Below are positions 4,739 to 25,000 of a stretch of 64,000 bases of DNA, in pieces. A model generated the notes under the pieces. It saw only the letters and a program-made list of their open reading frames with translations, made no database searches and was not told the origin of the DNA. The position numbers and the translations under genes were made by a program. Source of the stretch: Candidatus Multivorans sp. (lineage in GTDB: Bacteria > Acidobacteriota > Thermoanaerobaculia > Multivoradales > Multivoraceae); contig CBDCVC010000002.1 in the NCBI GenBank assembly GCA_965222875.1, positions 802,835 through 866,834 on the forward strand, in the 5' to 3' direction. Every line of letters starts with the position of its first letter. Within the stretch, counting starts at the first letter, position 1.

Positions 4739-6078
4739 GGCGCTTCAGGGTTGTGTGTGGGCATGAAGTGACTCCGGCGCGAGGTCGAGTCCGCCGAGAT
4801 GGAAGTAGATGGCGAGCCGGAAGTGTGCTCGGTTTCGATAGCCGTGCGCTTTTCGCTTGATCTCCTGGATCTTCGCGTTGATGCCTTCGGCGCGGGCGTT
4901 GGAGATGCTGGACACAGCAGCGTTGATGACGCTATCCCAGTGGTTCTTGATCATCTTCGCCACCTGCTTGATCGGTTCCAGGCGGCTGCGGACGGCCCAG
5001 TTGTACCAGCGCTTCCACCGCCGCTCGGCCCAGCCGCGGCGCACGTAGCCCCACGAGGAGCGCGCCATCTCCTTGATCGCCCAGGCGCGGGCCACGCGAA
5101 GATGACTCGCGCGAAGAGCGGCGAAACGCCGCTGCTGCGAACCCGTCATTCCCCCACGCTTCATCAACCACAGGTAGCGGCTCCGCTTCAGACGCGAATC
5201 CCCTGCTTCGAGCAGCTCCCGCTGCTCAGCACGGCGAACCAGGTCCACGGCGTGGTTCAGGTGCGCGACGATGTGGAACCTGTCGTGCACGATGTCCGCA
5301 TCCGTGTACTCCGCCACCGAGGAGATGTAGGCCGGCCACATGTCCATCGCCACCTGCTCGATACCCGCGCAGCTTTGCTCTCCCAACTCCTCGAAGTAGC
5401 CGTCGATGGCCGACCGACCACGACCGTCGGCCACATGGGTCACCACCCCGCGTTCCAGATCGTTGACTACCGTCACGTACTCGTGGCGCTTCCGAAACGA
5501 CGTCTCGTCCACCCCGATCACCCGAGGCGGCTTCAGCTCCCGCCGTGACAGACCCCGTTCCACGGCCCGGCGCTGAATCCCCGCCGCCTGATCCCAACTC
5601 AGGCCCAGACGGCGCGCCACCGCATGCACGCTCGCCTCACGCAGCCACTCGATGGCCTCCGCCTCGAACAGCGCCGTGAACCGCGAACCCGAGTCCGCCC
5701 AAGGCACCTTCAACTGGCGAATGCCGTGCTCGACGCAACGCACCCGAGGCACCTCCGCGTGAACCCGAGTCTGGTGCTGCATCGTGTCCAAGTGACGCCA
5801 ACGGCGATGCCGCCTGTCGTACCCCGGACACGGCAAACCGCACTCCGGACAGCGCGTCTCTCCACGATGCTCGACGTGGATCTCCACCGTGCCGCCAACC
5901 ACCGGACCCCGGCGACGCGGATGGCGCTCCTCCATGCGAAGCACCACCTCCCGCACACGCCACGGCGGCTTGACCCCCAACAGCCTCTCGAACGTCTTGG
6001 CACTCTTCATCCCGCCAGTCTATGGCCGATCGGCAGCCTCTCTCCCAGCTCCATGCCCACACAACAGCCTGAAGACCC
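4739..6078. mobile_element. ISL3-family insertion sequence, about 1340 bp, with an 8-bp target-site duplication
   Basis: Imperfect terminal inverted repeats: left 4739-4765 GGCGCTTCAGGGTTGTGTGTGGGCATG and right 6053-6078 CATGCCCACACAACAGCCTGAAGACCC (the reverse complement aligns with a few mismatches). A direct 8-bp duplication GGTTTTCG lies at 4731-4738 and 6079-6086, the TSD size expected for ISL3. Confidence 0.85.
4745..6010 (-). CDS. ISL3-family transposase (IS204/IS1001/IS1096/IS1165 type)
   Basis: 421 aa with an N-terminal Cys-rich zinc-finger region ([23 protein letters not shown]) and the conserved ISL3 DDE core (VIGVDETSF..., [24 protein letters not shown]). It lies between the IRs. 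Confidence 0.9.
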
Positions 6079-11225: not shown

Positions 11226-11584
11226 GGTCGTCTCAATGGAGCATTGAAGGCGGGGGGCGACCGAAACGTCGCCGGGTTGGCGAAAACGAGAGCCTGGAGT
11301 CTAGGGCTTTGCGCGCCAGAAGCAAGCTCGCCGCCGGGTCGGCCAGGACGCCTACCGGTCCAACCCGGACGCCTTCCCCGTCGTGAGTCCGCGGTTCACC
11401 GGTTCCGATTGAGCGGGCCCGAGGAGGGTGCCAACGGGCCATCTGCACCGAGTTAATTTACTTGTGTTTATCGAGCACACGTGCTATATTACTTGGCCTC
11501 GTCGGAGGCCCAAGACGGCCGGTTTCACGGCCTCCGACACGCGCCAACCCGGACCGTCAGGTCCCAGCCTAGGGTGCCAACCAA

Positions 11585-13030
11585 ATGATTGACAAACAAA
11601 CCGGCATGAGCAGCAAGGAGCGCATGGGCGAGGAGATCGCGGCGCTCGCCGCGCGCATTGACGCGGCGACCTATGAGCTGCTCGTCCTGATCCGCAAGTT
11701 CGATGAAAAGGAAGGCTGGAACCGCGGCTTCCTCACTTGCGCCCACTGGCTCACCTGGCGGATCGGTCTGGCGCCCGGCGCGGCCCGTGAGCGGGTGCGA
11801 GTCGCCCGGGCTCTGGGCGACCTGCCCTTGATGAGTGCGGCAATGAGCAGGGGCGAGCTCTCCTACTCCAAGGTGAGGGCGCTCACCCGCATCGCCACGC
11901 CCGACACCGAGCAGTCGCTGGTGGACCTGGGCAAGACCGGAACCGCGGCGCAGGTCGAGCGAGTGGTGAGAAGCTGGCGAAGGATCGACCGCACGGTCGA
12001 GGCCTATGACGATGAGCTGCGCGACGCGTCGAGTCACGTGACGACCCACATCGACGAGAACGGCATGTTCGTGATCCGCGGATGTCTGGCGCCGGAGGCG
12101 GGCGAAGTGCTGATGAAGGCACTCGATGCGGCGGGCGACAGGCTCTATGCCGAGCAGCGGGAAGACAAACCACCGGTCGGCAAGATCCGCGCCGATGCGC
12201 TTGCCCTCGTGGCCGAGAGCGCGCTCAGGGCCGGTCTCGATCCGGGATCGAGCGGTGACCGCTACCTGGTCGTGGTTCATGCGAACGAGGCGGAGCTGAC
12301 GGCGCAGGAGAGCGCGACGGCTGACAGCCGGGCTCACGTTCCCGCGGGAACGTCCGGGGCTCGCGTTCCCACGGAAACGCGAGGGGACCGCGACACGGAT
12401 GCGGGCGAGACGCCGGCGTTGCCAGGAGTTGCCAACGGCGCCTGGCTCGGGACCGCCCATGTCCCCGTTTCCGCGGAAACAGCCCGGAGGATCGCCTGCG
12501 ACGCCGGCAGAGTCTCGATGGCCCACCGGAACGGCCAGATCCTGAGCGTTGGCCGCAAGACCCGCACGATTCCGCCGCCGATCCGCCGGGCCCTGGAGTT
12601 TCGCGACCAGGGTTGCCGCTTCCCCGGCTGCACATCGCAGCATTGCGACGCTCACCACATCGTCCACTGGGCCGACGGCGGCGAAACGAAGCTCTCGAAC
12701 CTCGTGCTTCTCTGCCGCCGGCACCACCGCCTGCTCCACGAAGGCGGCTTCACCGTGAAGATGAACGAGGAACGCGCCGTTCAGTTCCGCGACAAACGTG
12801 GTCGGCCGCTGGAGCGCAGCCCGGCGCCGCCACCAGTTGGCTCGTACCCTGCCCGCGAGCTGATCCGCCAGTTGGAGGACGCCGGCATCCTGATCACCGG
12901 CAAGGAGTCAATGCCGGCCTGGGACGGCACACCGATGGACCTGCCCTACGTGATGGAGTGCCTGTGGCGACCGCCGCCGCATCTCGAAGCAGCGGTTGCC
13001 CGGGAACGAAACACATCGCACGCCGCGTAG
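11585..13030 (+). CDS. DUF222 / HNH endonuclease-signature protein (REP13E12-like family)
   Basis: 481 aa with an N-terminal DUF222-like region and a C-terminal HNH region with Cys/His ligands (GCRFPGCTSQHCDAHHIVHWADGGETKLSNLVLLCRRHHRLLHEGG). Confidence 0.8.
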   Translation: MIDKQTGMSSKERMGEEIAALAARIDAATYELLVLIRKFDEKEGWNRGFLTCAHWLTWRIGLAPGAARERVRVARALGDLPLMSAAMSRGELSYSKVRALTRIATPDTEQSLVDLGKTGTAAQVERVVRSWRRIDRTVEAYDDELRDASSHVTTHIDENGMFVIRGCLAPEAGEVLMKALDAAGDRLYAEQREDKPPVGKIRADALALVAESALRAGLDPGSSGDRYLVVVHANEAELTAQESATADSRAHVPAGTSGARVPTETRGDRDTDAGETPALPGVANGAWLGTAHVPVSAETARRIACDAGRVSMAHRNGQILSVGRKTRTIPPPIRRALEFRDQGCRFPGCTSQHCDAHHIVHWADGGETKLSNLVLLCRRHHRLLHEGGFTVKMNEERAVQFRDKRGRPLERSPAPPPVGSYPARELIRQLEDAGILITGKESMPAWDGTPMDLPYVMECLWRPPPHLEAAVARERNTSHAA

Positions 13031-13047
13031 AGGCCAAGGTCCGGCAT

Positions 13048-13076
13048 GACGGCGAGGTCCGGGACCTCGATTCGCC
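13048..13076 (+). repeat. Direct repeat copy 1 (28/29 nt, GACGGCGAGGTCCGGGACCTCGATTCGCC)
   Basis: Matches 13483-13510 with 2 mismatches. Reads in frame as ...DGEVRDLDSP. Confidence 0.7.
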
Positions 13077-13115
13077 ATCCGACGTGGGCTGAGGCGGTAT
13101 TCTCAACCGGCCTCG

Positions 13116-13541
13116 ATGCCAACCCCAACACCCGAAACCGACGCGATCGTCGCGACGCTGCGGTCCGAACTCCACGCCGAGCCGGACATCATCGCCGCCT
13201 ACCTCTACGGGTCCGTCGCCCGCGGCACTCAGCGCCGCGACAGCGATGTCGATGTAGGCCTCCTGCTCGAATCGGATCCTCCGGACACACTCGAGAGCCG
13301 CCGCCTGGACCTCGCCGCCCACATCGAGGAAAGGACGGGGCGACCAGCACAGATCGTCATCCTCAATCGAGCCCCGTGCGACCTCGCCCACCGGGTTCGC
13401 CGAGACGGCAAACTGCTGATCGACCGCGCCCCACGAAGCCTGGTCGCTGGCAGAACTCGCCGACCGCTTTCTCGTTCTGCGCGACGGCGAGATCCGGGAA
13501 CTCGATTCGCTGCCCGGAACGGGCGCAACCTGGAGGACACC
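13116..13541 (+). CDS. Minimal nucleotidyltransferase (MNT, Pol-beta superfamily; candidate orphan antitoxin-type NTase); the frame has no stop and runs on into the downstream VOC gene
   Basis: The GS-x9-10-DxD signature is LYGSVARGTQRRDSDVDVGLL, and the MNT core is complete by about aa 105. The same frame continues without a stop to 13973 through the VOC start codon. Confidence 0.6.
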
Positions 13542-13545
13542 ATGA
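13420..13545 (+). pseudogene. Relic of the 3' end of an ABC-transporter ATPase gene
   Basis: Frame +2 reads STAPHEAWSLAELADRFLVLRDGEIRELDSLPGTGATWRTP*. ADRxxVLRDGxI is the canonical C-terminal ABC ATPase motif. There is no start codon. The stop TGA overlaps the VOC ATG (ATGA). Confidence 0.5.
13483..13510 (+). repeat. Direct repeat copy 2 (GACGGCGAGATCCGGGAACTCGATTCGC)
   Basis: Pairs with 13048-13076. It lies inside the ABC-ATPase relic frame (DGEIRELDSL). Confidence 0.7.
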
Positions 13546-13973
13546 AGAATCCACCTGAAGGCTGGCCGAGAATCTCGTCCGCCCTCTTCTACGATGACGC
13601 GGCGGCCGCGATCGACTGGCTGACCCGGGCGTTCGGATTCGCGGTGCAGGAGCGGGTCGAGGACGAGCAGGGGAGAATCGTCCATTCGCAGCTCGTCCTG
13701 GACGGCGGTCTCATCATGGTCGGACAGACGGATCTGCAACCCGACCGGGCGTACCAGCAGTCTCCACAGGCGGTCGCCGGCGCGAACACGCAGTCGCTGG
13801 CCGTGTACGTCGACGACGCCGACGCGCACTGCGAGCGGGCGCGGGCGGCCGGCGCCGCGATCACGATCGAGCCCGCGACTCAGGACTACGGCGAGAGCTA
13901 CTGGGTCGACCGGAGCTACGGCGCCCGGGACCTTGAGGGACACTATTGGTGGTTCCTCCAGCGCCTGCGCTGA
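13542..13973 (+). CDS. VOC family protein (glyoxalase/bleomycin-resistance fold)
   Basis: RBS GGAGGACACC precedes the ATG. MKNPPEGWPRISSALFYDDAAAAIDWLTRAFGF...GESYWVDRSYGARDLEGHYWWF is the typical VOC/PhnB-like pattern. Confidence 0.75.
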   Translation: MKNPPEGWPRISSALFYDDAAAAIDWLTRAFGFAVQERVEDEQGRIVHSQLVLDGGLIMVGQTDLQPDRAYQQSPQAVAGANTQSLAVYVDDADAHCERARAAGAAITIEPATQDYGESYWVDRSYGARDLEGHYWWFLQRLR

Positions 13974-13982
13974 CGGCGCCCC

Positions 13983-14693
13983 TCACTCCCCATCCACCCC
14001 CTCGTTCAGGATCTTCAGGTACTCGCTGTAGACGTACGCCCGGTTCCGGCTGAAGCCGGTGATCTCCCGGACGAGGCCTGCGCGTTCCAGGAGTCTCAGC
14101 GCAGCCGAGACGGTCGGGAACGCGAGTCCGGTGCGCTTGCAGGTTTCCGGGATGGAGAGGATTGGACGTTCCTGTAGGGCTTCGTGGACCCGTAGTGCGG
14201 AGCCGGCGCGCCGGCCCTCCGTCGCGAGACGTTGCCGGTCGGCCGTGAATCGCTCGGTGAGGCGACCCACAGTGGCGGCGGCGTTCTCGGCCGTCTCCTG
14301 CACGCCTTGGAGGAAGAACGCCAGCCAAGCCTCCCAATCGCCGGTGTGCCGAACACGGTCGAGCAGCTCGTAGTAGCGCTCTCGATGGCGCTTGAAGTAC
14401 ACGCTGAGGTAGAGCAGCGGTTGGCGCAGTAGGCCCGCCTCGCACAGCAACAGCGTGATCAGCAGACGGCCGACGCGGCCGTTGCCGTCGAGAAACGGGT
14501 GAATCGTCTCGAACTGGACGTGAGCCAGACCAGCACGCATCAACGCCGGCAGGCCGTCGTCCTTCGCGTGCAGAAAGCCCTCGAGTTCGCCCATGCAATC
14601 GGGCACGGCGAGGTGCGGCGGCGGCACGAAGACTGCGTTGCCCGGGCGTACGGGGAACAGCAGACCCTGTTCGGCAGGTTCAGCCTTACAGCG
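13983..14693 (-). pseudogene. Fic/Doc family protein, 5'-truncated (N-terminal about 150 aa missing)
   Basis: Fic motif HPFLDGNGRVGR. The frame is open upstream only to a TGA at 14694-14696; it reads ...GNAVFVPPPHLAVPDCMGELEGFLH..., matching the Fic region just before the motif, but the expected N-terminal helices are absent. The first possible start is GTG at 14627. Confidence 0.7.
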
Positions 14694-14743
14694 TCACCGC
14701 AATGCGACGCGGTACCCTTCTCAACGGACCAGAGGCTGAACCC

Positions 14744-15706
14744 ATGTTCGACACGCGACCCGCCCTGCTCGCGATGGAGTTTCCGCCGCTCCGTCGCCGG
14801 CGCATCGCCACCTTGCAGGTGAACCTCGGCTACCGCTGCAACCTCAGTTGCGTGCACTGTCACGTCAACGCCGGCCCTCACCGGACGGAGATGATGTCCA
14901 CTGCCATCGTGGACGACGTGATCGCGGTAATCGACCGGCTGGACATCGAGACACTCGATCTCACCGGCGGAGCGCCGGAGTTGCATCCCGAGTTCCGCCG
15001 CCTGGCGAAGGAGGCGCGCCGGCGGAGCATCGAGGTGATCGACCGCTGCAACCTGACGGTGCTGTTCGAACCAGGCCAGGAGACGCTGGCCGCTTTCCTG
15101 GCCCGGGAAGAAGTCACGGTGGTGGCCTCCCTGCCCTGCTACCTCGAAGAGAACGTCGAGCAGCAGCGCGGCAAGGGCGTGTACGGGGACAGCATCCGGG
15201 CTCTCAAGCTGCTGAACGACCTCGGTTACGGACAGGACGACGCGCGGCGGCTCCACCTGGTCTTCAATCCCACGGGCGCCGTGCTGCCGCCGCCGCAGGC
15301 AGAACTCGAAGCGGACTACAAGCGCGAACTCCAGGAACGTTTCGGCGTCGTCTTCGACCAACTCTTCGTGCTCACCAACATGCCCATCAACCGCTTCGGC
15401 GCCGTCCTGAGGGCGCAGGGCAAGCTGGACGACTACATGGCGCTGCTGCGGGACAACCACAGCGCCGAGAACCTACCGACCGTCATGTGCCGCGACACGA
15501 TCAGCGCCGACTGGCAGGGCAACCTGTACGACTGCGACTTCAACCAGATGCTGGGGCTTCCGGCCATGGTGGACGGCCGACCCGCGCGCCTCGCCGATCT
15601 CGTCCGGGGCGGACCGCTCGAGAAAGCCTGTATCGCCACGGCCGGGCACTGCTTCGGCTGCACCGCCGGCCAGGGCAGTAGCTGCACCGGCGCTCTGGAC
15701 GGCTGA
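14744..15706 (+). CDS. Radical SAM / Cys-rich domain protein (ArsS / TIGR04167-like)
   Basis: CX3CX2C motif LGYRCNLSCVHCHV and a C-terminal Cys-rich tail CIATAGHCFGCTAGQGSSCTG. The probable start is MFDTRPALLAMEF at 14744; the ORF-track start is 14702. Confidence 0.7.
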   Translation: MFDTRPALLAMEFPPLRRRRIATLQVNLGYRCNLSCVHCHVNAGPHRTEMMSTAIVDDVIAVIDRLDIETLDLTGGAPELHPEFRRLAKEARRRSIEVIDRCNLTVLFEPGQETLAAFLAREEVTVVASLPCYLEENVEQQRGKGVYGDSIRALKLLNDLGYGQDDARRLHLVFNPTGAVLPPPQAELEADYKRELQERFGVVFDQLFVLTNMPINRFGAVLRAQGKLDDYMALLRDNHSAENLPTVMCRDTISADWQGNLYDCDFNQMLGLPAMVDGRPARLADLVRGGPLEKACIATAGHCFGCTAGQGSSCTGALDG

Positions 15707-15711
15707 CTGCC

Positions 15712-15775
15712 GGCCATGTGCAGGAACTTTGAATACTTCTCGTTTACGCCTTAGTTGCGCTATGATGCTCTCTTC
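15712..15775 (+). promoter_or_regulatory. AT-rich spacer upstream of imuA with promoter-like hexamers
   Basis: The local GC drop reads GGAACTTTGAATACTTCTCGTTTACGCCTTAGTTGCGCTATGATGCTC, with a TATGAT -10-like hexamer. No canonical SOS box was recognised. Confidence 0.3.
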
Positions 15776-16694
15776 CCACTTCCCGTTTCTCTCGTTCCGC
15801 TTCGACGCCGTGACTTCCCTGCCCGCAGCTCTCACCGACGCGCAGTGGCCGCGGGCACTCGTGCGCCAGCTCCGGCGCGGGCGGGAGCTGGTGGGCAATG
15901 GTCCCGCAATCGGAATCCAGGAGACGGACGCCGATCTGTTCGCCACGCGGCTTCGCGGTGTCGACCTGTTGCTCGGCGGCGGGATCTGCCGCGGGCAGAC
16001 GGTCGAGTTGGTCGGCCACCGAAGCAGCGGTCGCTTCTCCCTGGTGCTGGAGCTCCTGGCCGGCGCCACCCAGAGCGGTGAATCGGCGGCGCTGGTCGAC
16101 CTGGGAGATCACTTCGATCCACAGGCGGCGGCGCGCGCCGGGGTCGTCCTCGAACGGCTGCTCTGGGCGCGGCCCCAGCGATTGAAGCAAGCGCTGGGCA
16201 GTGCCGAAGTGCTGATCGGCGGCGGCTTCCCCCTGGTCGCGATCGACCTCGGACTGCCTCCGGTGCCCGGCGGCCGCGGCAAGGAGTCCGCGTGGTTGCG
16301 GCTGCGGCGGGCGGCGCTGGATCACCAGGCGGCGCTGCTGATCGCCAGCCCGTACCGCGCCGGCGGTACGGCGCCGCAGAAGATTCTCGAACTGGGTTCC
16401 CGCGCGTCGCCGGTCCGGAATGCGGGCGAGACGCCCGCGTTCCCAGGGGGCGAGACGCCGCCGGTTCGCGCTCTCTGGGCGCAGGCCGCGCCGAGAAGCC
16501 CGCGGTTGCTCGACGGGCTCGCGACCCGCCTGGAACTCGCCAAGTCGCGCGGCGCACGGCCGGGCGCCGCGACCGATGTCGAACTGCGCGTTCGCACCAG
16601 CAGCCTGCGGCGCCCCCTGCCCGGCACGCCGTCCCGACCTGCGAAGAACAGCTCCGCCGGCTCGCCCGCCGAGGTGCTGAGACGTGCCGGCTAA
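15762..16694 (+). CDS. imuA: ImuA-like RecA-fold protein of the imuA-imuB-dnaE2 mutagenesis cassette (start uncertain)
   Basis: The pattern TRLRGVDLLLGGGICRGQTVELVGHRSSGRFSLVLELLAGA...AALVDLGDHFDPQAAARAGVVLERLLWARP...LIGGGFPLVAIDLG is typical of ImuA/SulA-like proteins. It lies immediately upstream of, and overlaps, imuB. The ORF-track start is 15729; GTG at 15806 is an alternative start. Confidence 0.6.
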   Translation: MMLSSHFPFLSFRFDAVTSLPAALTDAQWPRALVRQLRRGRELVGNGPAIGIQETDADLFATRLRGVDLLLGGGICRGQTVELVGHRSSGRFSLVLELLAGATQSGESAALVDLGDHFDPQAAARAGVVLERLLWARPQRLKQALGSAEVLIGGGFPLVAIDLGLPPVPGGRGKESAWLRLRRAALDHQAALLIASPYRAGGTAPQKILELGSRASPVRNAGETPAFPGGETPPVRALWAQAAPRSPRLLDGLATRLELAKSRGARPGAATDVELRVRTSSLRRPLPGTPSRPAKNSSAGSPAEVLRRAG

Positions 16695-16716
16695 ACGCAA
16701 CTCCCGGATCGCCTGC

Positions 16717-18237
16717 ATGCGGGCGGCGTTGTTTCCGCTCGCGGCCTACTTGCGGGGGGCGCCGGAGCTGGCCCGCGAGGCGGTCGTGGTCCACGAAGGC
16801 CCCTCGGCGCGGATCGTCGCCGCCTCCCGGCTGGCGCGACGCGCGGGTGTGCGGCCGGGGCTGACCGTGGCGCAGGCCCGGAACATCGAGTCCGGCCTCG
16901 CCTCTCGCGTCCGCGACCCGGAGCGCGAACACACCGCGCAGGAGGTGCTGCTCGAGATCGCCGGCGCCTTCTCACCCCGGGTCGAGGACGGCGGTGAGGG
17001 CATGGTCTACCTCGACATCGCGGCCGACGACGAGCACAACCTCGGCCAGACGATGATGCGGGACATGGATGCCGCCGGCCTGCCCGGGCGGGTCGGCATC
17101 GCCGGCTGCAAGCTCGCGGCGCGGGCCGCGGCCGCCCTGCCGCGGTCGCCGAACGTCGTGGCGCCACGCGGCGAAGCCCGGTTCCTGGCGCCGTTGCCGC
17201 TCAACTCTCTGCTCGGGAGCGGCGGCAGCGGTCCCGGCAGCGACGCGGCGGACGGCGACGACCAGGAAATCCTCCACACGCTGAAGCTCTGGGGCCTGCG
17301 CACCGTCGGCGATCTGGCCGGCCTGCCGGCGGGCGAGATCCACAGCCGTCTCGGCGAGCACGGCACAGCGCTCCATGCCGCCGCCCGAGGCGTCGATCCG
17401 GCGCCGCTCACTCCCCGTCCGCCGCCGCCCACCTTCCGCGAGTCGCAGACTCTGGAATGGCCAATCGACAACCTGGAACCGTTCCTGTTCGTCGCCCGCG
17501 CCGCGGTCGAACGCCTTGTCACCCGGCTCGAAGCCCGGGGCATGGGCTGCAAGCGGCTCGAACTGTCGCTCAAGCTCGAACCCGAGGGCCTTCACGAGCT
17601 GGCGATCGAACTGCCGGCGCCCACACGCGAGGCCCGGACGTTGCTGTCGCTCGTCCACCTCCACCTGGAGGGAGAGCCGCCCCGGGCACCGATTGTCGGC
17701 ATGCAGCTTTCGGCTCACCCCGATGCCCCGCGCCAGGCCCAACTCAGCCTGCTCGGTCCGGCCGCCCTGTCGCCAGATCGCCTGGCCGCCGTCACCGCCC
17801 GGCTGCTCGCCCTGCTCGGCCCAAACCGGGTCGGCTCGCCGCGCACCAGAAACGGCCATCTGCCGGAACGCTTCCGGCTCGCCGACTACGACCCGCCCCC
17901 GCCGCCCCGCATCCGGCTCGAACCCCGGCCGGGCCGCGGCATGCTGGCGGTGCGCACCTTGCGGCCCCCGGTCGAGGTCGAGGTGCTGACGGCCGAAGGT
18001 TCCACTCTCTGCCCCGCACCGGTGCAGATCAACCCCCTGCCGACCGACGAACGCCACGTCCGCATCGAGGGCGCGGTCCGGACCGCCGCCGGCCCCTGGG
18101 AGATCGAAGAGGGCTGGTGGCGGGAGGCCCCTGCGCTGCGGGACTACTGGGACGTGGAACTGCGGAACGGCGCGGTGTGCCGGATCTACCGTGACCGGAC
18201 GTCGGAGCGCTGGTTCGCGGATGGGGTGTACGACTGA
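16717..18237 (+). CDS. imuB: ImuB, an inactive Y-family polymerase-like protein
   Basis: The N-terminus MRAALFPLAAYLR fits the ImuB pattern. It has a Y-family fold-like composition without the catalytic acidic triad context. It is adjacent to imuA, with dnaE2 downstream. Confidence 0.7.
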   Translation: MRAALFPLAAYLRGAPELAREAVVVHEGPSARIVAASRLARRAGVRPGLTVAQARNIESGLASRVRDPEREHTAQEVLLEIAGAFSPRVEDGGEGMVYLDIAADDEHNLGQTMMRDMDAAGLPGRVGIAGCKLAARAAAALPRSPNVVAPRGEARFLAPLPLNSLLGSGGSGPGSDAADGDDQEILHTLKLWGLRTVGDLAGLPAGEIHSRLGEHGTALHAAARGVDPAPLTPRPPPPTFRESQTLEWPIDNLEPFLFVARAAVERLVTRLEARGMGCKRLELSLKLEPEGLHELAIELPAPTREARTLLSLVHLHLEGEPPRAPIVGMQLSAHPDAPRQAQLSLLGPAALSPDRLAAVTARLLALLGPNRVGSPRTRNGHLPERFRLADYDPPPPPRIRLEPRPGRGMLAVRTLRPPVEVEVLTAEGSTLCPAPVQINPLPTDERHVRIEGAVRTAAGPWEIEEGWWREAPALRDYWDVELRNGAVCRIYRDRTSERWFADGVYD

Positions 18238-18355
18238 GGGGGTCCACATGGACTCGAGACCTACAGATTCCAGATGGCTGCCATCGGCCCACTTATAGAG
18301 TTCTGCCCGGCTTTTATCGATTCTCGCTATAAACGGCCGACAGGAGAAGAACAGC

Positions 18356-18790
18356 ATGAAGAACCAATGGATCTTCCCGACCCTCACCGGGATCAACTTC
18401 GCACTCCTGGCATTGCTCCTGTTGCTGCCCTACCTCACGAAGGCGGACGCCGCCGAAGACACCGTCCTGCGTGGCACGGGGATCGAGATCGTGGACCGTG
18501 ACGGACGCTTGCGGGCGCAGCTCGTCCTGGAGCCCGAAAACCCCGACTACGAGTGGCCGGACGGGCGAATCGGGTATCCCGAAACCGTCATCCTCCGGCT
18601 GATCACCGCTGACGGAAAGCCGCGGGTCAAGATCACGACTTCCGAGGAGGACTCCGGCCTCATGCTCCTCGGGGCGTCCGACACGACCCACACGATTCTC
18701 AAGGCGTTTCGGGACGAGACGTCTCTGTTGTTGCGGAACGACGCCACGGCCCAACGACTGCTGACGCCCGGCGTGTCGGCAGCCCGGTAG
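18356..18790 (+). CDS. Hypothetical exported or membrane-anchored protein
   Basis: RBS AGGAGAAG, and an N-terminal hydrophobic segment FPTLTGINFALLALLLLLPYL. Confidence 0.55.
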   Translation: MKNQWIFPTLTGINFALLALLLLLPYLTKADAAEDTVLRGTGIEIVDRDGRLRAQLVLEPENPDYEWPDGRIGYPETVILRLITADGKPRVKITTSEEDSGLMLLGASDTTHTILKAFRDETSLLLRNDATAQRLLTPGVSAAR

Positions 18791-18806
18791 TCCGAACGCG
18801 CCGGCC

Positions 18807-19196
18807 TCAATCGTCCGGCAGGGCGGGTCCCGGCACCCGCCCGCCGATGACCTGCTCCGTCACCACACGGCCACCGATCAGGTGTTCCTGGATCACTCGT
18901 TCCAGCACCTCGGGCGTGCAACCCCAGTACCAGACGCCCTCCGGGTAGACCACCGCGATCGGGCCGGCGTCGCAGATCCGGAGGCAGTTCGCCTTCGTCC
19001 GCATGACCGTGCCGGACTCCGTCAGGCCGATCTCGACCAAGCGGCGCTTGAGGTAGGACCACGACTCGAGTGACGTCTCCAGCTCGCAGCACTTGGGCGT
19101 CGTCTGGTCGCAGCACAGAAAGATGTGCCGCTGCACGTTCGAGATGCCGATCGACTCGGCCTTGCGCCGGGCGCGGTCGAGCGCTTCGCGGTCCAT
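18807..19196 (-). CDS. Thioredoxin-like [2Fe-2S] ferredoxin
   Basis: HIFLCCD...KCC...[22 protein letters not shown] matches the Cys ligand pattern of thioredoxin-like 2Fe-2S ferredoxins. Confidence 0.75.
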
Positions 19197-19249
19197 GGCG
19201 CCGATGATTCCATGACCGGCGCGGAGCTCCAGCGATAGTCTGCGATGCC

Positions 19250-19624
19250 ATGAAGCTGTTCGAAGCCGCCTACCCGTTCCAGGACGACGTGCTCGCCCTG
19301 CCGGTAGACGATCTTGACGCCACCGCGAAGTGGTACGCGGACGCCTTCGGGCTCCAGGAGGTCGAACGGCGCGAGGAACCGGCGCCGACGGTCATTCTCG
19401 AACGCGACGGCGTCCGGATCGGCTTCGCGATCAACGGCGGCGACGCAAGCATGGACGGCGCCGCGATCCTGGTCACCGACATCAAGCGAGCGCGGACCGA
19501 GCTCAAGAGCAACGGCATCAAGGTCAAGAACTGGCGCATCGACAAGCGGGACGGCAAGAAGTTCCGGGTCTTCTTCGTCGTCGCGCCGGACGGACTCTGC
19601 TACTACTTCCATCAGGAGGTCTGA
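19250..19624 (+). CDS. VOC family protein (glyoxalase-like)
   Basis: 124 aa with VOC-like beta-alpha-beta3 composition ([15 protein letters not shown]...GVRIGFAI...[18 protein letters not shown]). Confidence 0.65.
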
Positions 19625-19683
19625 CGGGGCGACCGTCGGTCACGGTAAGATCGGGCGTCCACGGCTTCAGGGGCACGTACTTC

Positions 19684-20019
19684 ATGCTCACGCTTGACCC
19701 CGACGAACAGACTTGGCTCGACGACTACCGGAAGGCGCTCCGAGAACAGCACCCGGACGCCGTCCGGCGCATGGTCGTCTACGGCTCAAAGGCCCGTGGC
19801 GACGCCCGCGAAGACAGTGATCTGGACATCCTGCTCCTGGTTGCCGACGAGGCCGCGGACCTCCAGCGGCGCCTCAGGCGCATCGGCTACCACCTCGCCG
19901 CGGCCACGCCGATCGCGCCCTCGATCATGGCGTACACGAAAGGAGCGTGGGAGACACAGAAGAACCGCGGCTTCCCATTCCAGCTCGCCGTTGAGCGCGA
20001 CGCCGTCTCGGTTCTGTGA
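19684..20019 (+). CDS. Minimal nucleotidyltransferase (second MNT, orphan)
   Basis: MVVYGSKARGDAREDSDLDILLLV is the GS-x9-DxD MNT signature. The stop TGA abuts the ATG of a 16-codon ORF (MLYLLTKGLTEDDLAC*) at 20020-20070. Confidence 0.7.
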   Translation: MLTLDPDEQTWLDDYRKALREQHPDAVRRMVVYGSKARGDAREDSDLDILLLVADEAADLQRRLRRIGYHLAAATPIAPSIMAYTKGAWETQKNRGFPFQLAVERDAVSVL

Positions 20020-20097
20020 ATGCTCTATCTGCTGACGAAGGGACTGACCGAAGACGATCTTGCGTGCTGAGGAACTCGAGGGACCCGGTTCTGAGGG

Positions 20098-21846
20098 ATG
20101 GCAATCGGCTTGCGAATGACAGTTCACTCCGAAAGACGGGAGGTCGTCGCAGCCGTCATGGTCGGCGTGGCGCTCCTTCTTCATCAGGCCGCCAACGCCC
20201 AGGACTTCGCCGAACTCCTGGAGATCCGGCGCGTCAAGGAGACGCTGGACCTGAGCGAGGTGCCGGAACCGGACCTGACCGGGGTTCCCGCGGTCGACGG
20301 GCAGCGTCTTCAGGAGTACCGGTCGCTCACCGCGAACGCCCTGGAACACGCCGCGGGGCCTCTCGAGGCGCAGTTGGCGGCGAACACCTACGGCGACCTG
20401 TGCGCGCGCTACCTGCACTACGAGCTCCACGACGCGGCGGCCGGCTGCCTGGATCAGATCAGGGAGCTGGCGCCGGCGGACTTCCAGTGGGCCTACTTCC
20501 AGTTGCTGCTGGACATTGCGACCGGCAACTTTGAAGGCGCCCTCTCGAGCGCCGAACAGGCGCTCGCCATGCGGCCGGACGACCCGCCGACCTTGATTCG
20601 CCTGGCCGAACTCCACGTCGCGGCCGGCGACATCGACGCCGCCGAAGCCGCGTACGAAGCGGCGCTTGCGGCCTATCCGGAGAGCGCCACGGCCCGCGTC
20701 GGCCTCGGCTACATCGCAATGGAACGCGGCGATCCGGCGCGCGCGCTCGAGATCTTCCAGGAAGTCGCCGCGTCGCAGCCCGAGGGCAGCGAGGCGAATC
20801 ATCACGTCGGCCTCGCCTACCGCGCATTGGGTGATGGCGACCGGGCCGTCGAGGCGTGGCGCCTGAACCAGGACATTCAGATCCCGATGTACGACCCGCT
20901 GATCGAACGCCTCAGGCCGCTCGAGGAAGATGTGATCCTGCCGCTCGACCGCGCCGTCGCCGCCGCCGCGGAGGGCGACCACCAACGGGCGGTCGGGCTG
21001 TACGAAGAGATCCTCCAAGCGAACGAGGCGGACGACGAAGCGCACTTCCGCCTGGCGGGCTCGCTGCTGGTGCTCGGCGAGGCCGTGCGCGGCGAAGGGC
21101 ATCTACGCCGGGCGATCGCGCTGAACACCGATCACGCCGGAGCGCACTTTGCCCTCGCCATGTTCCTCGCTCAAGCCGGACGCCGCAGCGACGCCGCCCA
21201 ACACCTGGAACGGGCGGCCGATCTCGCGCCCCAGAACCTGCCCTGGCGTCTTCAGCGGGCGCAGATGCGGGCCGCCTCGGGCAACACCGCCGGCGCCATC
21301 GACGAACTCAGGCAGATCGTGGCCCTCGACCCCGGGATGATCGAAGCACGGCGACCGCTCGCCGCCCTGCTCGTCGGCGCGGGCCGGGCCGAAGAAGCCG
21401 CCGCCCAGTTGCAGGCCCTGGTCGCGCTGACGCCGGACGATCTGCAGGCGCGCTTCAACCTCGGGCTGATGCTGTTCCAGACCGGCCGCTACACCGAGGC
21501 GCGCGCGGCTCTGGACGAAGCTCTGGGGCGCTTCCCCAGCGACATCGCCACCCGCCACCTGCTGGCGCGGCTGCTTGCCGTGAGCCCCGACGAGGCGGTG
21601 CGCGACGGCGCACGGGCGGTCGAGCTGGCGCAGTCGGTGGTCGACGAACAACCCGCACTCGACCACCTCGAGACGCTGGCGATGGCCCTGGCCGAGGCCG
21701 GGCGGTTCGACGACGCCGTCGCTTGGCAGCAACGGACGCTCGAACGGGAACGGGCCGAGGCCGGTGGTAACTCGTCCCAACGGCTCGATCGGCTGGCGCT
21801 GTACCAGGCGCGGCAGCCGCTGCGGGCCCCGCGGCGTCAGAACTAG
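20098..21846 (+). CDS. TPR-repeat protein with N-terminal signal peptide
   Basis: Signal-like VAAVMVGVALLLHQAANAQD, followed by many Ala-rich TPR-like repeats. Confidence 0.7.
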   Translation: MAIGLRMTVHSERREVVAAVMVGVALLLHQAANAQDFAELLEIRRVKETLDLSEVPEPDLTGVPAVDGQRLQEYRSLTANALEHAAGPLEAQLAANTYGDLCARYLHYELHDAAAGCLDQIRELAPADFQWAYFQLLLDIATGNFEGALSSAEQALAMRPDDPPTLIRLAELHVAAGDIDAAEAAYEAALAAYPESATARVGLGYIAMERGDPARALEIFQEVAASQPEGSEANHHVGLAYRALGDGDRAVEAWRLNQDIQIPMYDPLIERLRPLEEDVILPLDRAVAAAAEGDHQRAVGLYEEILQANEADDEAHFRLAGSLLVLGEAVRGEGHLRRAIALNTDHAGAHFALAMFLAQAGRRSDAAQHLERAADLAPQNLPWRLQRAQMRAASGNTAGAIDELRQIVALDPGMIEARRPLAALLVGAGRAEEAAAQLQALVALTPDDLQARFNLGLMLFQTGRYTEARAALDEALGRFPSDIATRHLLARLLAVSPDEAVRDGARAVELAQSVVDEQPALDHLETLAMALAEAGRFDDAVAWQQRTLERERAEAGGNSSQRLDRLALYQARQPLRAPRRQN

Positions 21847-21898
21847 CAACACCGGTTCATACCGGCGCTGCGCCGGATGCGGGCAAGATGCCCGTGTT

Positions 21899-21955
21899 CC
21901 ATCCGTGCGCCCGATGGCGGGCGCACGGAGTGGTTCGCGGGTGGCGCGGAATCGC
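21899..21955 (+). repeat. Conserved palindromic hairpin element, copy A
   Basis: CCGTGCGCCCG-ATGG-CGGGCGCACGG (11-bp perfect stem at 21904-21929) followed by GAGTGGTTCGCGGGTGGCGCGGAATCG. About 57 nt recur at 43531-43590 with 5 mismatches. Confidence 0.6.
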
Positions 21956-22060
21956 GCCGCCCGGGTTCCCAGGGCGGATAAGCGCGGCGATCTCCCGGCT
22001 GTCGACGCCTGGGTTCCCAGAGGTCTTGCTATCCATTACCGCCTGATTTACGCTTACCGG

Positions 22061-25000
22061 ATGGCTCCCAAGGTCAAAGTACCGGCCCGCAACATGGGGC
22101 TGTCCGGCTCGATGCGCAAGGGCAGCAACCGCGGCGGCGGTAACGGCAACGGCCTGCTCGACGCCCGGGGCGAGCCGAACCCCGGCTATGCCGCGCCGGG
22201 GGCGGTCAAGGAGCAACTGCGCCGGCGCGACCTCCAGCCCCCGCCGAAGCGCCGTCGACGGCCGCCGTCCTACGCCGAACTCCACGCTGCCTCGTCGTTC
22301 TCCTTCCTGCGCGGCTCGTCGCAGCCCGAGGATCTGGTGGCGCGGGCGGCGGCGCTCGGGCTGCCGGCGGTCGCCCTGCTCGACCGGAACGGCGTCTCCG
22401 GCGCGCCGCGCTTCTACAAGGCGGCGCGGGAGGCGGGGATCCGGGCGCTGGTCGGCGCCGAGGCGGTCATCGACCGGCCGCAGGCGTCGGCGGTTTCGCG
22501 GCAGCGCGAGGAGCGGCCGATGCTGGACGATCAGGAAACCCGCGTCCAGCTTCTGGTGAGGAGCCGACAGGGCTACCGCAACCTCTGCCGCCTGCTGACC
22601 GCCGGGGCGCTCAACCACCCGAAGGGCGAGGCCCGGATCGACTGGACGCTGCTCGAGGAGCACGCGGCCGGGCTCCACTGCCTGGCCGGCGCCGCAGCCG
22701 ACCCGATCGGACGGGCGCTGACGCGGGAAGGGCAGGAAGCGGCCGGTCGCCAGCTCGAACGGCTGCACGCCGTCTTCCCGGGCCGCCTGCATGTGGAGCT
22801 CGCGCGGCACGGCATCCGCGCCGAGGAACATCGCAACCAGGCCCTGGTCCGGCTGGCGCAGAGGCTGGCGGTACCCGTTGTGGCCACCGGCGGCGTGCGC
22901 TACGCCACCGCCGCCGACAAGCCCCTCTACGATCTGATGACCGCGATCCGGCACCACGTAACGGTCGACGACGCCGGCGCGCGCCTCGCCCGCTGCCGGC
23001 AGCGGCGTCTGAAGAGCCCGGAAGAGATGCACCGGCTGTTCGCCGATCTGCCGCAGGCCGTCCACGCCGCGCACGAACTGGCCGCGGAACTCGACTTCAC
23101 CCTCGCCGACCTCGGCTACCGCTTCCCGGACTACCCGCTTCCCGCCGGCGAGACGGCGATCTCCCATCTCCGCGAACTGACCTGGCAGGGGGCGCGGGAG
23201 CGATTCCGGCCGCTCACCGCCCGCGCCGGGGCGCAACTCGAGAAGGAGCTCGCGCTGATCGAGAAGCTCGACCTCGCCGGCTACTTCCTGATCGTCTGGG
23301 ACATCGTCCGCTTCTGCAAGGAGCAGCGGATCTTCGCCCAGGGCCGCGGCTCGGCCGCCAACTCCGCGGTCTGCTATGCGCTCTCGATCACCGCGGTGGA
23401 CCCGGTGAAGATGGACCTCCTGTTCGAGCGCTTCCTGTCCGAAGAACGGGGCGAATGGCCGGACATCGACATCGATCTGCCGTCCGGCGACCAGCGCGAG
23501 AAGGTCATCCAGTACGTCTACCGGCGCTACGGCCGGCACGGCGCGGCGATGACCGCGAACGTGATCACCTACCGCGACCGCATGGCCGCGCGCGAGGCGG
23601 CCAAGGCGCTGGGGTGCTCCAAGTCCCAGGTCGACCGGCTGGCCAAAGGCCTCGGCCACTGGCACTCCGCCCTGAGATACAGCGGCCTCTCCCGCGGCGA
23701 CAGCAAGGAGATGGACGAGGAACTGACGGAGCTCGGGTTCGATCCCCGCGACCGGCGCATCCAGATCTTCGTCCGGTTGTGGCGGCAGCTTCAGAACCAT
23801 CCCCGCCACCTGAGCCAGCACTCGGGCGGCATGGTGCTCTGCGCCGGCCGACTGGACGAGATCGTGCCGCTCGAACCGGCGGCGATGGAGAACCGGGTCA
23901 TCGTCCAGTGGGACAAGGACGACTGCGCCGATCTGGGGCTGATCAAGGTCGACCTGCTCGGCCTCGGCATGCTGAATGCGCTGGAGGAGGCGGTGCCCCT
24001 GATCCACCGGCACGAAGGCAGGGAGATCGACCTGGCTCACCTGCCGCCCGACGACCCGGCGGTCTACGAGATGATCTGCCGCGCCGACACGGTCGGGGTC
24101 TTCCAGATCGAGAGCCGGGCGCAGATGGCGTCCCTGCCGCGCCACCGGCCATACAAGTTCTACGATCTCGTGATCCAGATCGCGATCATCCGCCCCGGCC
24201 CGATCGTCGGCGGGATGGCCCATCCCTTCTTCGAGCGCCGGGTGGGCCGCGAGGAGGTCACCTACCCTCACCCGCTGCTCGAGCCGATCCTGCGCCGCAC
24301 CCTCGGCGTACCGATCTTCCAGGAACAGATCCTCAAGGTCGCCATGGTCGCGGCCGGCTTCAGCGGCGGCGAGGCGGAGGATCTGCGGCGCGCGATGGGC
24401 TTCAAACGCTCCGTCGAGCGAATGCAGGAGATCGAACGCCGCTTACGTTCCGGCATGAACGAACGCGGCATCCAGGGCGTTGCCCAGGAACAGATCGTCA
24501 AGGCGATCACGTCGTTCGCGCTCTATGGTTTCCCGGAGTCGCACTCCGCCAGCTTCGCCCTGATCGCCTACGCCAGCGCCTACCTGAAGCGGCACCATCC
24601 GACCGCCTTCTTCCTGTCACTCCTGAACGCCTGGCCGATGGGCTTCTACCACCCGGCGACCCTGGTCCGCGAAGCGCAGCGCGCGGGCAGCGTGGTGCTG
24701 CCGATCGACGTGAACGAATCGGGGGTCAGGTGCCGTTGGGAAGACAGGCCGGCGGAGAGCGACGGGGTGGCGCGGCGCGGGCGCGCGGGCGATCCGCCGC
24801 GGGGAGCGATCCGCCTCGGGCTGCGCTACGTCAAGGGACTGCGGCACGAGGCGGCCGAACAGATCGAAGCCGAGCAGGCGGGAAAGCCGTTCGGGAGCAT
24901 TGAGGATCTGGCCGAGCGCTGCCGCTTGCGCCGGAAGGAACTCGCGGCGCTGGCGTCCATTGGCGCGTTGCCAGAGCGCGGCCGGCGGGCCGCGCTGTGG

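What the first reader, a model, noticed from the sequence alone, without database searches (positions are those of the whole stretch)
13040..13560. MNT gene bracketed by 28-nt direct repeats that encode an ABC-ATPase C-terminal motif; its ORF has no stop and runs into the VOC gene
GACGGCGAG[G/A]TCCGGGA[C/A]CTCGATTCGC occurs at 13048-13076 and at 13483-13510 (26/28 identical), on either side of the roughly 330-bp MNT core. Both copies read in frame as DGE[V/I]R[D/E]LDS. The downstream copy extends upstream to ...AELADRFLVLRDGEIRELDSLPG..., the hallmark C-terminus of ABC ATPases, and ends in a TGA that overlaps the VOC ATG. So an ABC ATPase gene once preceded the VOC gene and has been almost entirely replaced. 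The two mismatches fall on codon positions that keep conservative amino acids. This suggests two diverged homologous gene ends rather than a fresh target-site duplication, though an att-like duplication is not excluded. The MNT frame itself has no stop codon for 858 nt and becomes the VOC frame.
Basis: seen in the sequence. Interest (0 to 1): 0.5.

Follow-up and report, generated by a model that had tools for sequence, protein, structure and literature searches.

The report
Recombination scar: two ABC-gene tails
The repeat is real, but it is an ordinary recombination scar: two leftover 3' ends of the same ABC-ATPase gene family flank a truncated antitoxin gene, left behind when a toxin-antitoxin cassette was inserted and a later deletion removed about 3-4 kb of a transporter operon.

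Summary
The 26/28 direct repeat lies at 13048-13075 and 13483-13510 and extends to 37 nt. The reading frames, the ATGA overlap with the VOC start, and the 858-nt stop-free MNT-to-VOC ORF are all as described.

Relatives from sponge-symbiont Acidobacteriota show how it arose. The ancestral order is DUF222-HNH / CPBP protease / (SAM methyltransferase) / permease / ABC ATPase / VOC, with one repeat copy at the ABC C-terminus.

- **Right copy:** the native ABC tail (codons 183-219), about 99% identical to close relatives.
- **Left copy:** a 54-bp tail of a diverged ABC allele. In some genomes that allele is followed directly by an MntA-HepT type VII toxin-antitoxin pair.
- **How the left copy got here:** the tail travelled with MntA-HepT as a roughly 0.95-kb segment inserted into the HNH-CPBP spacer. 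The same left junction is seen in L006, L025, L026 and L007.
- **Second event:** in the window, an illegitimate join at a 9-bp microhomology (CCCACGAAG, 13430-13438) removed the mntA 3' end, hepT, CPBP, the permease and ABC codons 1-182.

The repeat is therefore neither a target-site duplication nor an att site. No MNT-VOC fusion protein turned up among the homologues searched. VOC keeps its own Shine-Dalgarno sequence and ATG. Interest is low.

The parts
11585..13030 (+). DUF222-HNH endonuclease gene (481 aa), intact. It is the conserved left border of the variable locus.
   Evidence: Pfam DUF222 at 9.6e-22 and HNH at 5.8e-07. Syntenic in L001-L007 and most genome loci.
13031..13037 (+). Last bases of the HNH 3' flank still shared with relatives (..AGGCCAA). 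The left breakpoint lies at 13037/13038.
   Evidence: BLAST alignments to L001, L002 and L004 end at 13035-13037. The sequences following the HNH stop codon are compared across loci.
13039..13092 (+). Orphan 3' tail of a diverged ABC-ATPase allele (17 codons plus stop, VRHDGEVRDLDSPSDVG*). It contains the left repeat copy (13048-13075; extended form 13039-13075).
   Evidence: Translation. Collinear with the end of the full-length ABC' gene of L004 (..VLRNGEVLEVDSLSDAD*), which continues into the same spacer and MNT gene. The same tail follows HNH in L006, L025, L026 and L007.
13093..13115 (+). Spacer between the ABC' tail and the mntA start. It is part of the transposed segment.
   Evidence: Aligned with L006 and L004. 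L004 carries 17 extra nt here.
13116..13438 (+). Truncated mntA (type VII antitoxin adenylyltransferase), residues 1-107 of about 136. The GS..DxD nucleotidyltransferase motif is present and the C-terminal 29 residues are missing.
   Evidence: NCBIfam MntA_antitoxin 71.4 bits (cut-off 60), covering only profile positions 2-82 of 106. Full-length relatives are 136-138 aa. No HepT anywhere in the window.
13430..13438 (+). Right breakpoint: the 9-bp microhomology CCCACGAAG, shared by mntA (codons 105-108) and the ABC gene (codons 182-185).
   Evidence: L004 and L026 mntA read ..GACCGCGCCCCACGAAGGCGCATCGCC... L001, L002 and L037 ABC read ..GTCGCAACCCACGAAGCCGGGTCGC... The window switches from one to the other inside the 9-mer.
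13432..13545 (+). Native ABC-ATPase 3' remnant (codons 183-219 plus TGA, from the H-loop His to the end). It contains the right repeat copy (13483-13510).
   Evidence: tblastn of the L001 ABC protein against the window matches here, and the true homology covers the last 37 codons. The DNA is 98.7% identical to L001 and L002 from 13430 onward. There are two substitutions, G186W and R218T.
13542..13973 (+). VOC/glyoxalase-family gene, intact (143 aa), with its own Shine-Dalgarno sequence GGAGGA at 13532-13537.
   Evidence: Pfam Glyoxalase at 1.5e-13. 97% identical to the L001 and L002 proteins; all but one of the listed homologues with 84% identity or more are 143 aa. Sequence read.
13116..13973 (+). 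Accidental 285-aa ORF: the mntA fragment, then about 35 codons of the ABC tail read out of frame, then VOC.
   Evidence: ORF list. No homologue of either half has this architecture or length.

Best explanation
The two repeat copies are the 3' ends of two alleles of the same ABC-ATPase gene. Two illegitimate recombination events in a hypervariable locus brought them within 435 bp of each other.

**Ancestral state (shown by relatives).** The order was DUF222-HNH / CPBP protease / (SAM methyltransferase) / permease / ABC ATPase / VOC. The ABC stop overlaps the VOC start (ATGA).

**Event 1 (shown by shared junctions; direction inferred).** In another allele, an MntA-HepT type VII toxin-antitoxin pair lies directly downstream of the ABC gene. 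A segment of about 0.95 kb from that arrangement was inserted into the HNH-CPBP spacer. The segment began 54 bp before the ABC stop codon and ran through mntA and hepT. This is how a diverged ABC tail came to lie upstream of the resident operon.

**Event 2 (junction shown; mechanism inferred).** A join at the 9-bp microhomology CCCACGAAG linked mntA codon about 107 to ABC codon 183. It removed the mntA 3' end, hepT, CPBP, the permease and ABC codons 1-182, roughly 3.4-4.3 kb in all. This was either an intrachromosomal microhomology-mediated deletion or a homology-facilitated illegitimate recombination between alleles of co-occurring strains. The evidence does not separate the two.

**Consequences (inferred).** The mntA fragment and both ABC tails are non-functional remnants. 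VOC is intact and is most likely translated from its own Shine-Dalgarno sequence and ATG, and it may now be transcribed from the toxin-antitoxin promoter. The 285-aa MNT-VOC ORF is a by-product of the frames involved.
For: **Ancestral order.** L001 and L002 have HNH-CPBP-permease-ABC-VOC with a single repeat copy. L037 adds the SAM methyltransferase. Most of the species-representative genomes fetched have PERM-ABC-VOC, with one repeat copy at the ABC C-terminus wherever the repeat was detected.

**Origin of the left copy.** L003-5 and L018 have a complete ABC' gene, 87% identical to ABC, followed directly by mntA. Window 13049-13438 is collinear with L004 5917-6323.

**Shared left junction.**
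- Window 12410-13438 aligns without a break to L006 (92.0%), L025 (92.1%) and L026 (92.3%).
- L026 shows HNH / tail-MntA-HepT / CPBP. The HNH-CPBP spacer sequence resumes after hepT.

**Right junction.** Homology to mntA ends at 13438 and homology to ABC starts at 13430. The shared 9-mer is present in both parental genes.

**Family assignments.** Full-length relatives pass the NCBIfam MntA_antitoxin and HepT_toxin cut-offs. The window copy covers only profile positions 2-82 of 106. HepT, CPBP and the permease are absent from the whole window.

**Not an assembly artefact.** L007, a separately assembled contig, carries the same mosaic at 99.89% identity over 7.1 kb.

**Backbone identity.** The window is 99-100% identical to L002 at 11.5-12.4 kb and 98.7-99.3% identical to L001 and L002 at 13430-13880. 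The cassette part is only about 92% identical to its nearest relative.
Against: - The exact predicted intermediate (HNH / tail-MntA-HepT / CPBP / permease / ABC / VOC on one molecule) was not found. L026 has the cassette next to CPBP but has lost the permease, ABC and VOC.
- The closest backbone relatives (L001, L002) lack the cassette entirely. Allele exchange between strains therefore has to be invoked.
- Site-by-site phasing of the HNH gene did not reveal a clear crossover point.
- The direction of event 1 is inferred from the fact that only an ABC gene can be the source of the tail. A tandem-duplication ancestor followed by deletions cannot be formally excluded.
- No expression data exist for the 285-aa ORF.
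Confidence: 0.8

Rival explanations
1. The repeats are att-like sites, or a target-site duplication, produced when a mobile MNT cassette integrated into the 3' end of the ABC gene.
For: There are direct repeats on both sides of the MNT core. In type B genomes, the sequence diverges from the VOC-type arrangement immediately after the repeat, so the repeat's 3' edge coincides with a real rearrangement boundary.
Against: - The copies differ at 2 of 28 positions (6 of 37 in the extended form).
- The left copy is not attached to an ABC gene. It abuts the HNH 3' flank.
- Cassette-bearing relatives L006, L025 and L026 have only the left copy.
- The true right end of the inserted segment lies after hepT, in the HNH-CPBP spacer.
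- The right copy has 52 bp of native ABC sequence upstream of it, and the mntA/ABC joint is a 9-bp microhomology.
- No integrase or transposase lies next to it in the window.
Confidence: 0.03
2. The 285-aa ORF encodes a genuine, selected MNT-VOC fusion enzyme.
For: There is one uninterrupted frame from the MNT ATG to the VOC stop. The nucleotidyltransferase GS..DxD motif is retained. The same ORF occurs in L007.
Against: - VOC homologues among the best 120 listed are 131-156 aa, and MNT homologues are 100-180 aa. None has the fusion architecture.
- The linker is the ABC tail read out of frame.
- MNT lacks its last 29 residues.
- VOC keeps the conserved Shine-Dalgarno sequence and ATG that it uses in relatives.
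- L007 is 99.9% identical, so it provides no independent evolutionary support.
Confidence: 0.05
3. The mosaic is a metagenome-assembly chimera that joins reads from a cassette-bearing strain and a VOC-type strain.
For: Several related strains with different alleles co-occur in one sample: L001, L002, L006, L007 and L037 all come from ERZ25067264. The flanks and the middle of the mosaic have different nearest relatives.
Against: The right joint shares only 9 bp between the two parental sequences, which is too short to merge assembly paths. A separately assembled contig, L007, has the identical structure with a few differences. The left joint is shared by four further contigs from three samples.
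Confidence: 0.03
4. The locus once held two tandem copies of the CPBP-permease-ABC operon with MntA-HepT between them. All present forms, including the window, are deletion derivatives of that ancestor, and the left copy is the remnant of the first ABC gene left in place.
For: This model explains every variant by deletions alone: type A, type B, the L026 type, and the window. L026 has MntA-HepT upstream of a CPBP gene, and L016 has MntA-HepT upstream of permease-ABC-VOC.
Against: No genome with two operon copies was found among 37 loci. In L026 the cassette is bounded on both sides by HNH-CPBP spacer sequence, as expected for an insertion. The L016 cassette has no ABC tail. The more diverged species have the single VOC-type operon without MNT.
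Confidence: 0.09

Closest known systems
Orphan 3' gene remnants left by displacement events in polymorphic loci (Rhs/CDI orphan C-terminal ends; T6SS effector-immunity arrays in Vibrio cholerae, PMC5361080)
   Same: Successive illegitimate or one-sided-homology recombination events in a strain-variable locus leave short, diverged 3' ends of the same gene family lying as direct repeats next to newly arrived small modules.
   Different: Here the gene is an ABC ATPase of a CPBP/permease operon, not a toxin. The remnant travelled with the incoming module rather than being displaced by it. There is no constant-5'/variable-3' logic and no evidence of any selective benefit.
Homology-facilitated illegitimate recombination and microhomology-mediated deletion (PMC3240628; de Vries and Wackernagel 2002, and Prudhomme et al. 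2002, as cited in PMC5361080)
   Same: The joint lies at a short GC-rich microhomology (9 bp), with near-identical homologous sequence on the flanks and loss of the intervening recipient DNA.
   Different: Donor and recipient cannot be identified. A simple intrachromosomal deletion gives the same product. Natural competence or conjugation in these uncultured symbionts is unknown.
Type VII MntA-HepT (MNT-HEPN) toxin-antitoxin modules (PMC7641770)
   Same: The MNT fragment belongs to the MntA antitoxin family (71 bits against a cut-off of 60). Its full-length relatives sit next to HepT toxins with 4-nt overlaps.
   Different: In the window the antitoxin is truncated and the toxin is gone, so no toxin-antitoxin function can remain.

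Membership tests
Type VII toxin-antitoxin system, MntA antitoxin (NCBIfam NF047752) | Sequence scores above the curated family cut-off | tested here: met
   71.4 bits against a cut-off of 60 for window 13116-13430. The full-length relative in L006 scores 83 bits.
Type VII toxin-antitoxin system, MntA antitoxin (NCBIfam NF047752) | Complete domain, including the C-terminal part | tested here: not met
   Only profile positions 2-82(86) of 106 are matched. Relatives continue ..RRRIAWEVKSRNEYFDMEPIRRLYRHG.. for another 29 residues.
Type VII toxin-antitoxin system, MntA antitoxin (NCBIfam NF047752) | Adjacent HepT (HEPN RNase) toxin gene | tested here: not met
   tblastn with two HepT proteins finds nothing in the 64-kb window. 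Relatives L016, L025, L026 and L027 have HepT directly downstream of mntA.
ABC transporter ATP-binding protein (Pfam PF00005) | Walker A, signature and Walker B motifs in one reading frame | tested here: not met
   Only the last 37 codons (right copy) and the last 17 codons (left copy) are present. The complete 219-aa orthologue in L001 matches ABC_tran and many NCBIfam ABC models.
Target-site duplication or att sites of a mobile element | Repeats bound the inserted element at both ends, and the empty site carries one copy at the insertion point | tested here: not met
   The inserted segment's right end lies after hepT in the HNH-CPBP spacer, not at the right copy. Relatives carrying the cassette have only the left copy. 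The copies differ at 2 of 28 positions.
VOC / glyoxalase-bleomycin resistance superfamily (Pfam PF00903) | Full-length domain match in an intact ORF with its own start | tested here: met
   Glyoxalase at 1.5e-13, residues 14-138 of 143. 97% identical to the 143-aa orthologues. Shine-Dalgarno sequence GGAGGA lies 4 nt upstream of the ATG.
Homology-facilitated illegitimate recombination product | Microhomology at the illegitimate joint | tested here: met
   The 9-bp CCCACGAAG is shared by both parental genes at the joint.
Homology-facilitated illegitimate recombination product | An identifiable homologous anchor tract derived from the donor on one side | tested here: inconclusive
   Informative sites in the HNH gene show no clean switch from L002-like to L006-like sequence. 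A plain deletion in a cassette-bearing ancestor fits equally well.

The most novel reading that the evidence does not exclude
The roughly 0.95-kb MntA-HepT module may be an actively relocating unit within the variable region around the DUF222-HNH endonuclease gene. It was found at four or more different positions in related genomes: after the ABC gene; between HNH and the permease; between HNH and CPBP; and beyond the Eco57I-like gene. On this reading, breaks next to the HNH gene drive capture of DNA fragments, so that the module picks up pieces of neighbouring genes such as the ABC tail. The repeat would then be a footprint of a break-and-capture mobility route for toxin-antitoxin modules that needs no recombinase.
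Probability: 0.1. Interest if true: 0.45.

Novelty: new member of a known kind. Interest (0 to 1): 0.15.

Why it matters
The main value is for annotation and for reading genome history. The 285-aa "MNT-VOC" ORF should not be annotated as a fusion enzyme, and neither should the 170-171-aa ORF that a gene caller predicted across the mosaic in L007. The mntA fragment and both ABC tails are pseudogene remnants.

The locus also gives a clean, base-resolved example of three things in uncultured sponge-symbiont Acidobacteriota. A toxin-antitoxin module moves within a variable island. It carries a fragment of its former neighbour with it. Microhomology-mediated joins then erase whole operons while sparing the last gene. 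It does not reveal a new kind of system.

Tried and rejected
- **Exact-sequence look-ups.** Look-ups of the window's VOC protein, of P0001 and of the 285-aa ORF found no record, so the source contig could not be retrieved.
- **JGI metagenome scans.** The cassette left-junction 26-mer found nothing. The MntA protein found only distant relatives at 31-56% identity.
- **Promoter and terminator scan.** The consensus scan of 12800-14100 found nothing, so transcription of VOC from the toxin-antitoxin promoter remains an inference.
- **Phasing the HNH gene.** Site-by-site phasing against L001, L002, L006 and L004, meant to locate a homologous crossover, gave no clear switch. This would have distinguished homology-facilitated illegitimate recombination from plain deletion.
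- **Left breakpoint at a microhomology.** I considered whether the left breakpoint used the ACGGCG(N)GG similarity between the HNH-CPBP spacer and the ABC tail. I rejected this because the window keeps 11 nt of ABC-derived sequence upstream of that motif.
- **Search for the intermediate.** The last context look-ups (P0129, P0003) did not yield the predicted full intermediate.

Full report
**Observation**

The region was read directly. The 28-nt repeat lies at 13048-13075 and 13483-13510 and is identical at 26 of 28 positions. The repeat finder extends it to 37 nt at 84% identity (13039-13075 and 13474-13510). A degenerate search allowing 3 mismatches finds only these two copies in 64 kb, and none appeared in 100 shuffles.

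The left copy reads ..VRHDGEVRDLDSPSDVG* with its stop at 13090-13092. The right copy reads ..HEAWSLAELADRFLVLRDGEIRELDSLPGTGATWRTP*, and its TGA overlaps the ATG at 13542. ORF 13116-13973 is open for 285 codons. It carries a Polbeta/NTP_transf_2 domain at residues 16-105 and a Glyoxalase domain at residues 156-280.

**Surroundings**

The neighbouring genes are, in order:
- a 1356-aa Eco57I-like enzyme on the minus strand;
- a DUF222-HNH gene (11585-13030);
- the region in question;
- VOC (13542-13973);
- an N-terminally truncated Fic gene on the minus strand;
- an ArsS-type radical SAM gene;
- imuA-, imuB- and dnaE2-like genes.

VOC homologues place the organism among sponge-associated Holophagales/Thermoanaerobaculia MAGs named "Ca. 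Multivorans".

**The ancestral arrangement**

A contig whose VOC is 97% identical (L001), and a second strain from the same sample (L002), carry this order: Eco57I-like(-) / DUF222-HNH / Rce1-like CPBP protease / 415-aa membrane protein / 219-224-aa ABC ATPase / VOC / Fic / radical SAM / ImuA / ImuB. Their ABC gene ends ..THEAGSLAELADRFLVLRDGEIRELDSLPGTGATWRRP*, with the same ATGA overlap onto VOC. Each has one copy of the repeat. L037 additionally has a SAM methyltransferase gene in the operon.

A scan of one genome per species returned 17 loci. Most of them show permease-ABC-VOC, and the repeat occurs once, at the ABC C-terminus, in every locus where it was detected. So an ABC gene did precede VOC. 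Window 13432-13545 is what remains of it: codons 183-219, 98.7% identical to L001 and L002 at the DNA level.

**Where the left copy comes from**

The closest full-length MNT relatives are 136-138 aa and pass the NCBIfam cut-off for the type VII antitoxin MntA. Their downstream partners pass the HepT toxin cut-off.

In L003-5 and L018, which represent the same 4.6-Mb circular genome, the same locus reads HNH / CPBP / SAM methyltransferase / permease / ABC' / MntA... with no VOC. ABC' is 87% identical to ABC and ends ..LVLRNGEVLEVDSLSDAD*. Window 13049-13438 is collinear with L004 5917-6323. That stretch covers the end of ABC', the spacer and mntA. The left copy is therefore the last 17 codons of an ABC' allele that has mntA as its downstream neighbour. 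ABC and ABC' diverge from each other right after ..GATTCGCTG, which is why the repeat ends where it does.

**The left junction is old and shared**

Window 12410-13438 covers the HNH 3' end, the ABC' tail and mntA. It aligns without interruption to L006 (92.0%), L025 (92.1%) and L026 (92.3%), and at 99.9% to L007. The five sequences following the HNH stop codon are collinear through the junction, apart from scattered substitutions.

L026 shows the full context: HNH / tail-MntA-HepT / CPBP. After hepT, the sequence returns to the HNH-CPBP spacer known from L002, L004 and L021. A segment of about 0.95 kb, starting 54 bp before the ABC' stop and running through hepT, was therefore inserted into that spacer, replacing a few tens of bases.

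The MntA-HepT pair also occurs without any ABC tail at two other positions. One is between HNH and the permease (L016). The other is beyond the Eco57I-like gene (L027-30). The module is evidently mobile within this island.

**The right junction**

Homology to mntA ends at 13438, and homology to ABC begins at 13430.
- mntA of L004 and L026 reads ..ATCGACCGCGCCCCACGAAGGCGCATCGCC..
- ABC of L001, L002 and L037 reads ..CTCGTCGCAACCCACGAAGCCGGGTCGCTGG..
- The window reads ..ATCGACCGCGCCCCACGAAGCCTGGTCGCTGG...

The switch lies inside the shared 9-mer CCCACGAAG, and there is patchy similarity on either side. This is the signature of a microhomology-mediated illegitimate join.

Relative to an ancestor with the cassette upstream of an intact operon, the join removed the last 29 codons of mntA, hepT, CPBP, the methyltransferase if it was present, the permease and ABC codons 1-182. 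That amounts to about 3.4-4.3 kb. None of these genes is found anywhere in the window.

**Deletion or inter-allele recombination?**

The window's backbone is 99-100% identical to L002 at 11.5-12.4 kb and 98.7-99.3% identical to L001 and L002 at 13430-13880. Both of those relatives lack the cassette. The cassette part is only about 92% identical to any relative. The alleles of this locus are therefore exchanged among co-occurring strains.

Two routes give the same product. In one, a cassette-bearing ancestor with an L002-like backbone suffered an internal deletion. In the other, a fragment from a cassette-bearing strain entered a VOC-type chromosome by homology-facilitated illegitimate recombination, which combines one homologous end with one microhomology end (PMC3240628). 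Phasing of informative sites in the HNH gene did not resolve a crossover. I leave this step open.

**What the pieces do now**

- The MntA fragment lacks its C-terminal quarter (profile positions 2-82 of 106) and has no toxin to neutralise. MntA normally inactivates HepT by polyadenylylation (PMC7641770).
- Both ABC tails lack all the ATPase motifs.
- VOC is intact. It retains the GGAGGA sequence 4 nt before its ATG, which is conserved in relatives.
- The 285-aa ORF exists only because the mntA frame, read across the out-of-frame ABC tail, happens to meet no stop before entering the VOC frame. Among the listed VOC homologues (131-156 aa) and MNT homologues (100-180 aa), none has this architecture.
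- On L007, a gene caller predicted a 171-aa protein in a third frame across the mosaic. This shows how such scars mislead annotation.

**Rivals**

An att site or target-site duplication, a genuine fusion enzyme, an assembly chimera, and a tandem-operon ancestor were all considered. Each is contradicted or left unsupported by the relatives; the details are in the rival-explanations section.

**Comparison with what is known**

The closest parallels are orphan 3' gene ends in polymorphic loci, such as Rhs/CDI orphans and the T6SS effector-immunity arrays that have been proposed to arise by homology-facilitated illegitimate recombination (PMC5361080).

The same locus in relatives holds several further scars:
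- an in-frame MntA::HepT fusion caused by an internal deletion in L004;
- a HepT 3' stub between HNH and the permease in L017;
- an ABC(1-152)/VOC(90-143) join in L022;
- a Fic gene split by an IS21-family element in L026.

The finding is a real, well-resolved, but ordinary recombination scar.

Noticed in passing
window 19684-20016 (within ORF 19330-20019) and ORF 20016-20534: There is a second, unrelated MNT-type nucleotidyltransferase gene. It matches Pfam NTP_transf_2 at 5.7e-09 and is 55% identical to the MNT gene of an MNT-HEPN pair at L037 14653-15407. The overlapping downstream ORF in the window matches no family, and L037's HEPN protein does not match it.
   Followed up: partly
window 13983-14627 (-): The Fic gene lacks its N-terminal 164 residues. 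It aligns to residues 165-384 of the 385-aa protein of L004. The same truncation occurs in L001, whereas L011, L014, L017, L021 and L037 have full-length copies.
   Followed up: partly
window 14702-15706 (+): An ArsS-type arsenosugar radical SAM gene (TIGR04167, 440 bits) sits alone between Fic and imuA. In L025 it lies on the other side of Fic, and in many relatives it is absent.
   Followed up: no
window 15729-25492 (+): This is an imuA-like (RecA fold), imuB-like (IMS) and dnaE2-like (DNA_pol3_alpha) cassette. It forms the conserved right border of the variable locus. G+C rises to 73-75% at 16-18 kb.
   Followed up: no
L004 6001-6495 (= L018 7683-8177): mntA and hepT are fused in frame by an internal deletion of about 280 bp. 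The 164-aa product ends with the HepT ..FRNILVHEY.. part. A DDE_Tnp_1 insertion sequence follows directly.
   Followed up: partly
L017 about 5580-5740; L022 5561-6174: Two further deletion scars occur in the same locus. L017 keeps only the last 25 nt or so of hepT between HNH and the permease (compare L016). L022 joins ABC residues 1-152 to VOC residues 90-143.
   Followed up: partly
L007 6001-6516 (= window 13046-13558): A gene caller predicted a 171-aa protein (P0144, no Pfam domain) in a third reading frame across the whole mosaic. All three forward frames are open across about 13420-13540.
   Followed up: yes
window 11368-11517 and 12267-12402: Identity to close relatives is patchy. At 11368-11517 the window is 74.5% identical to L001 but 98.7% to L002. 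At 12267-12402 it is 72.6% identical to L006 but 98.5% to L001 and 99.3% to L002. This points to frequent recombination among co-occurring strains.
   Followed up: partly
L016 4632-5680 and L017 7001-8049: In these two genomes the ABC alignment spans 229 codons and overlaps the VOC gene by 66 nt instead of 4 nt. The ABC C-terminal tail therefore differs again in these lineages.
   Followed up: no
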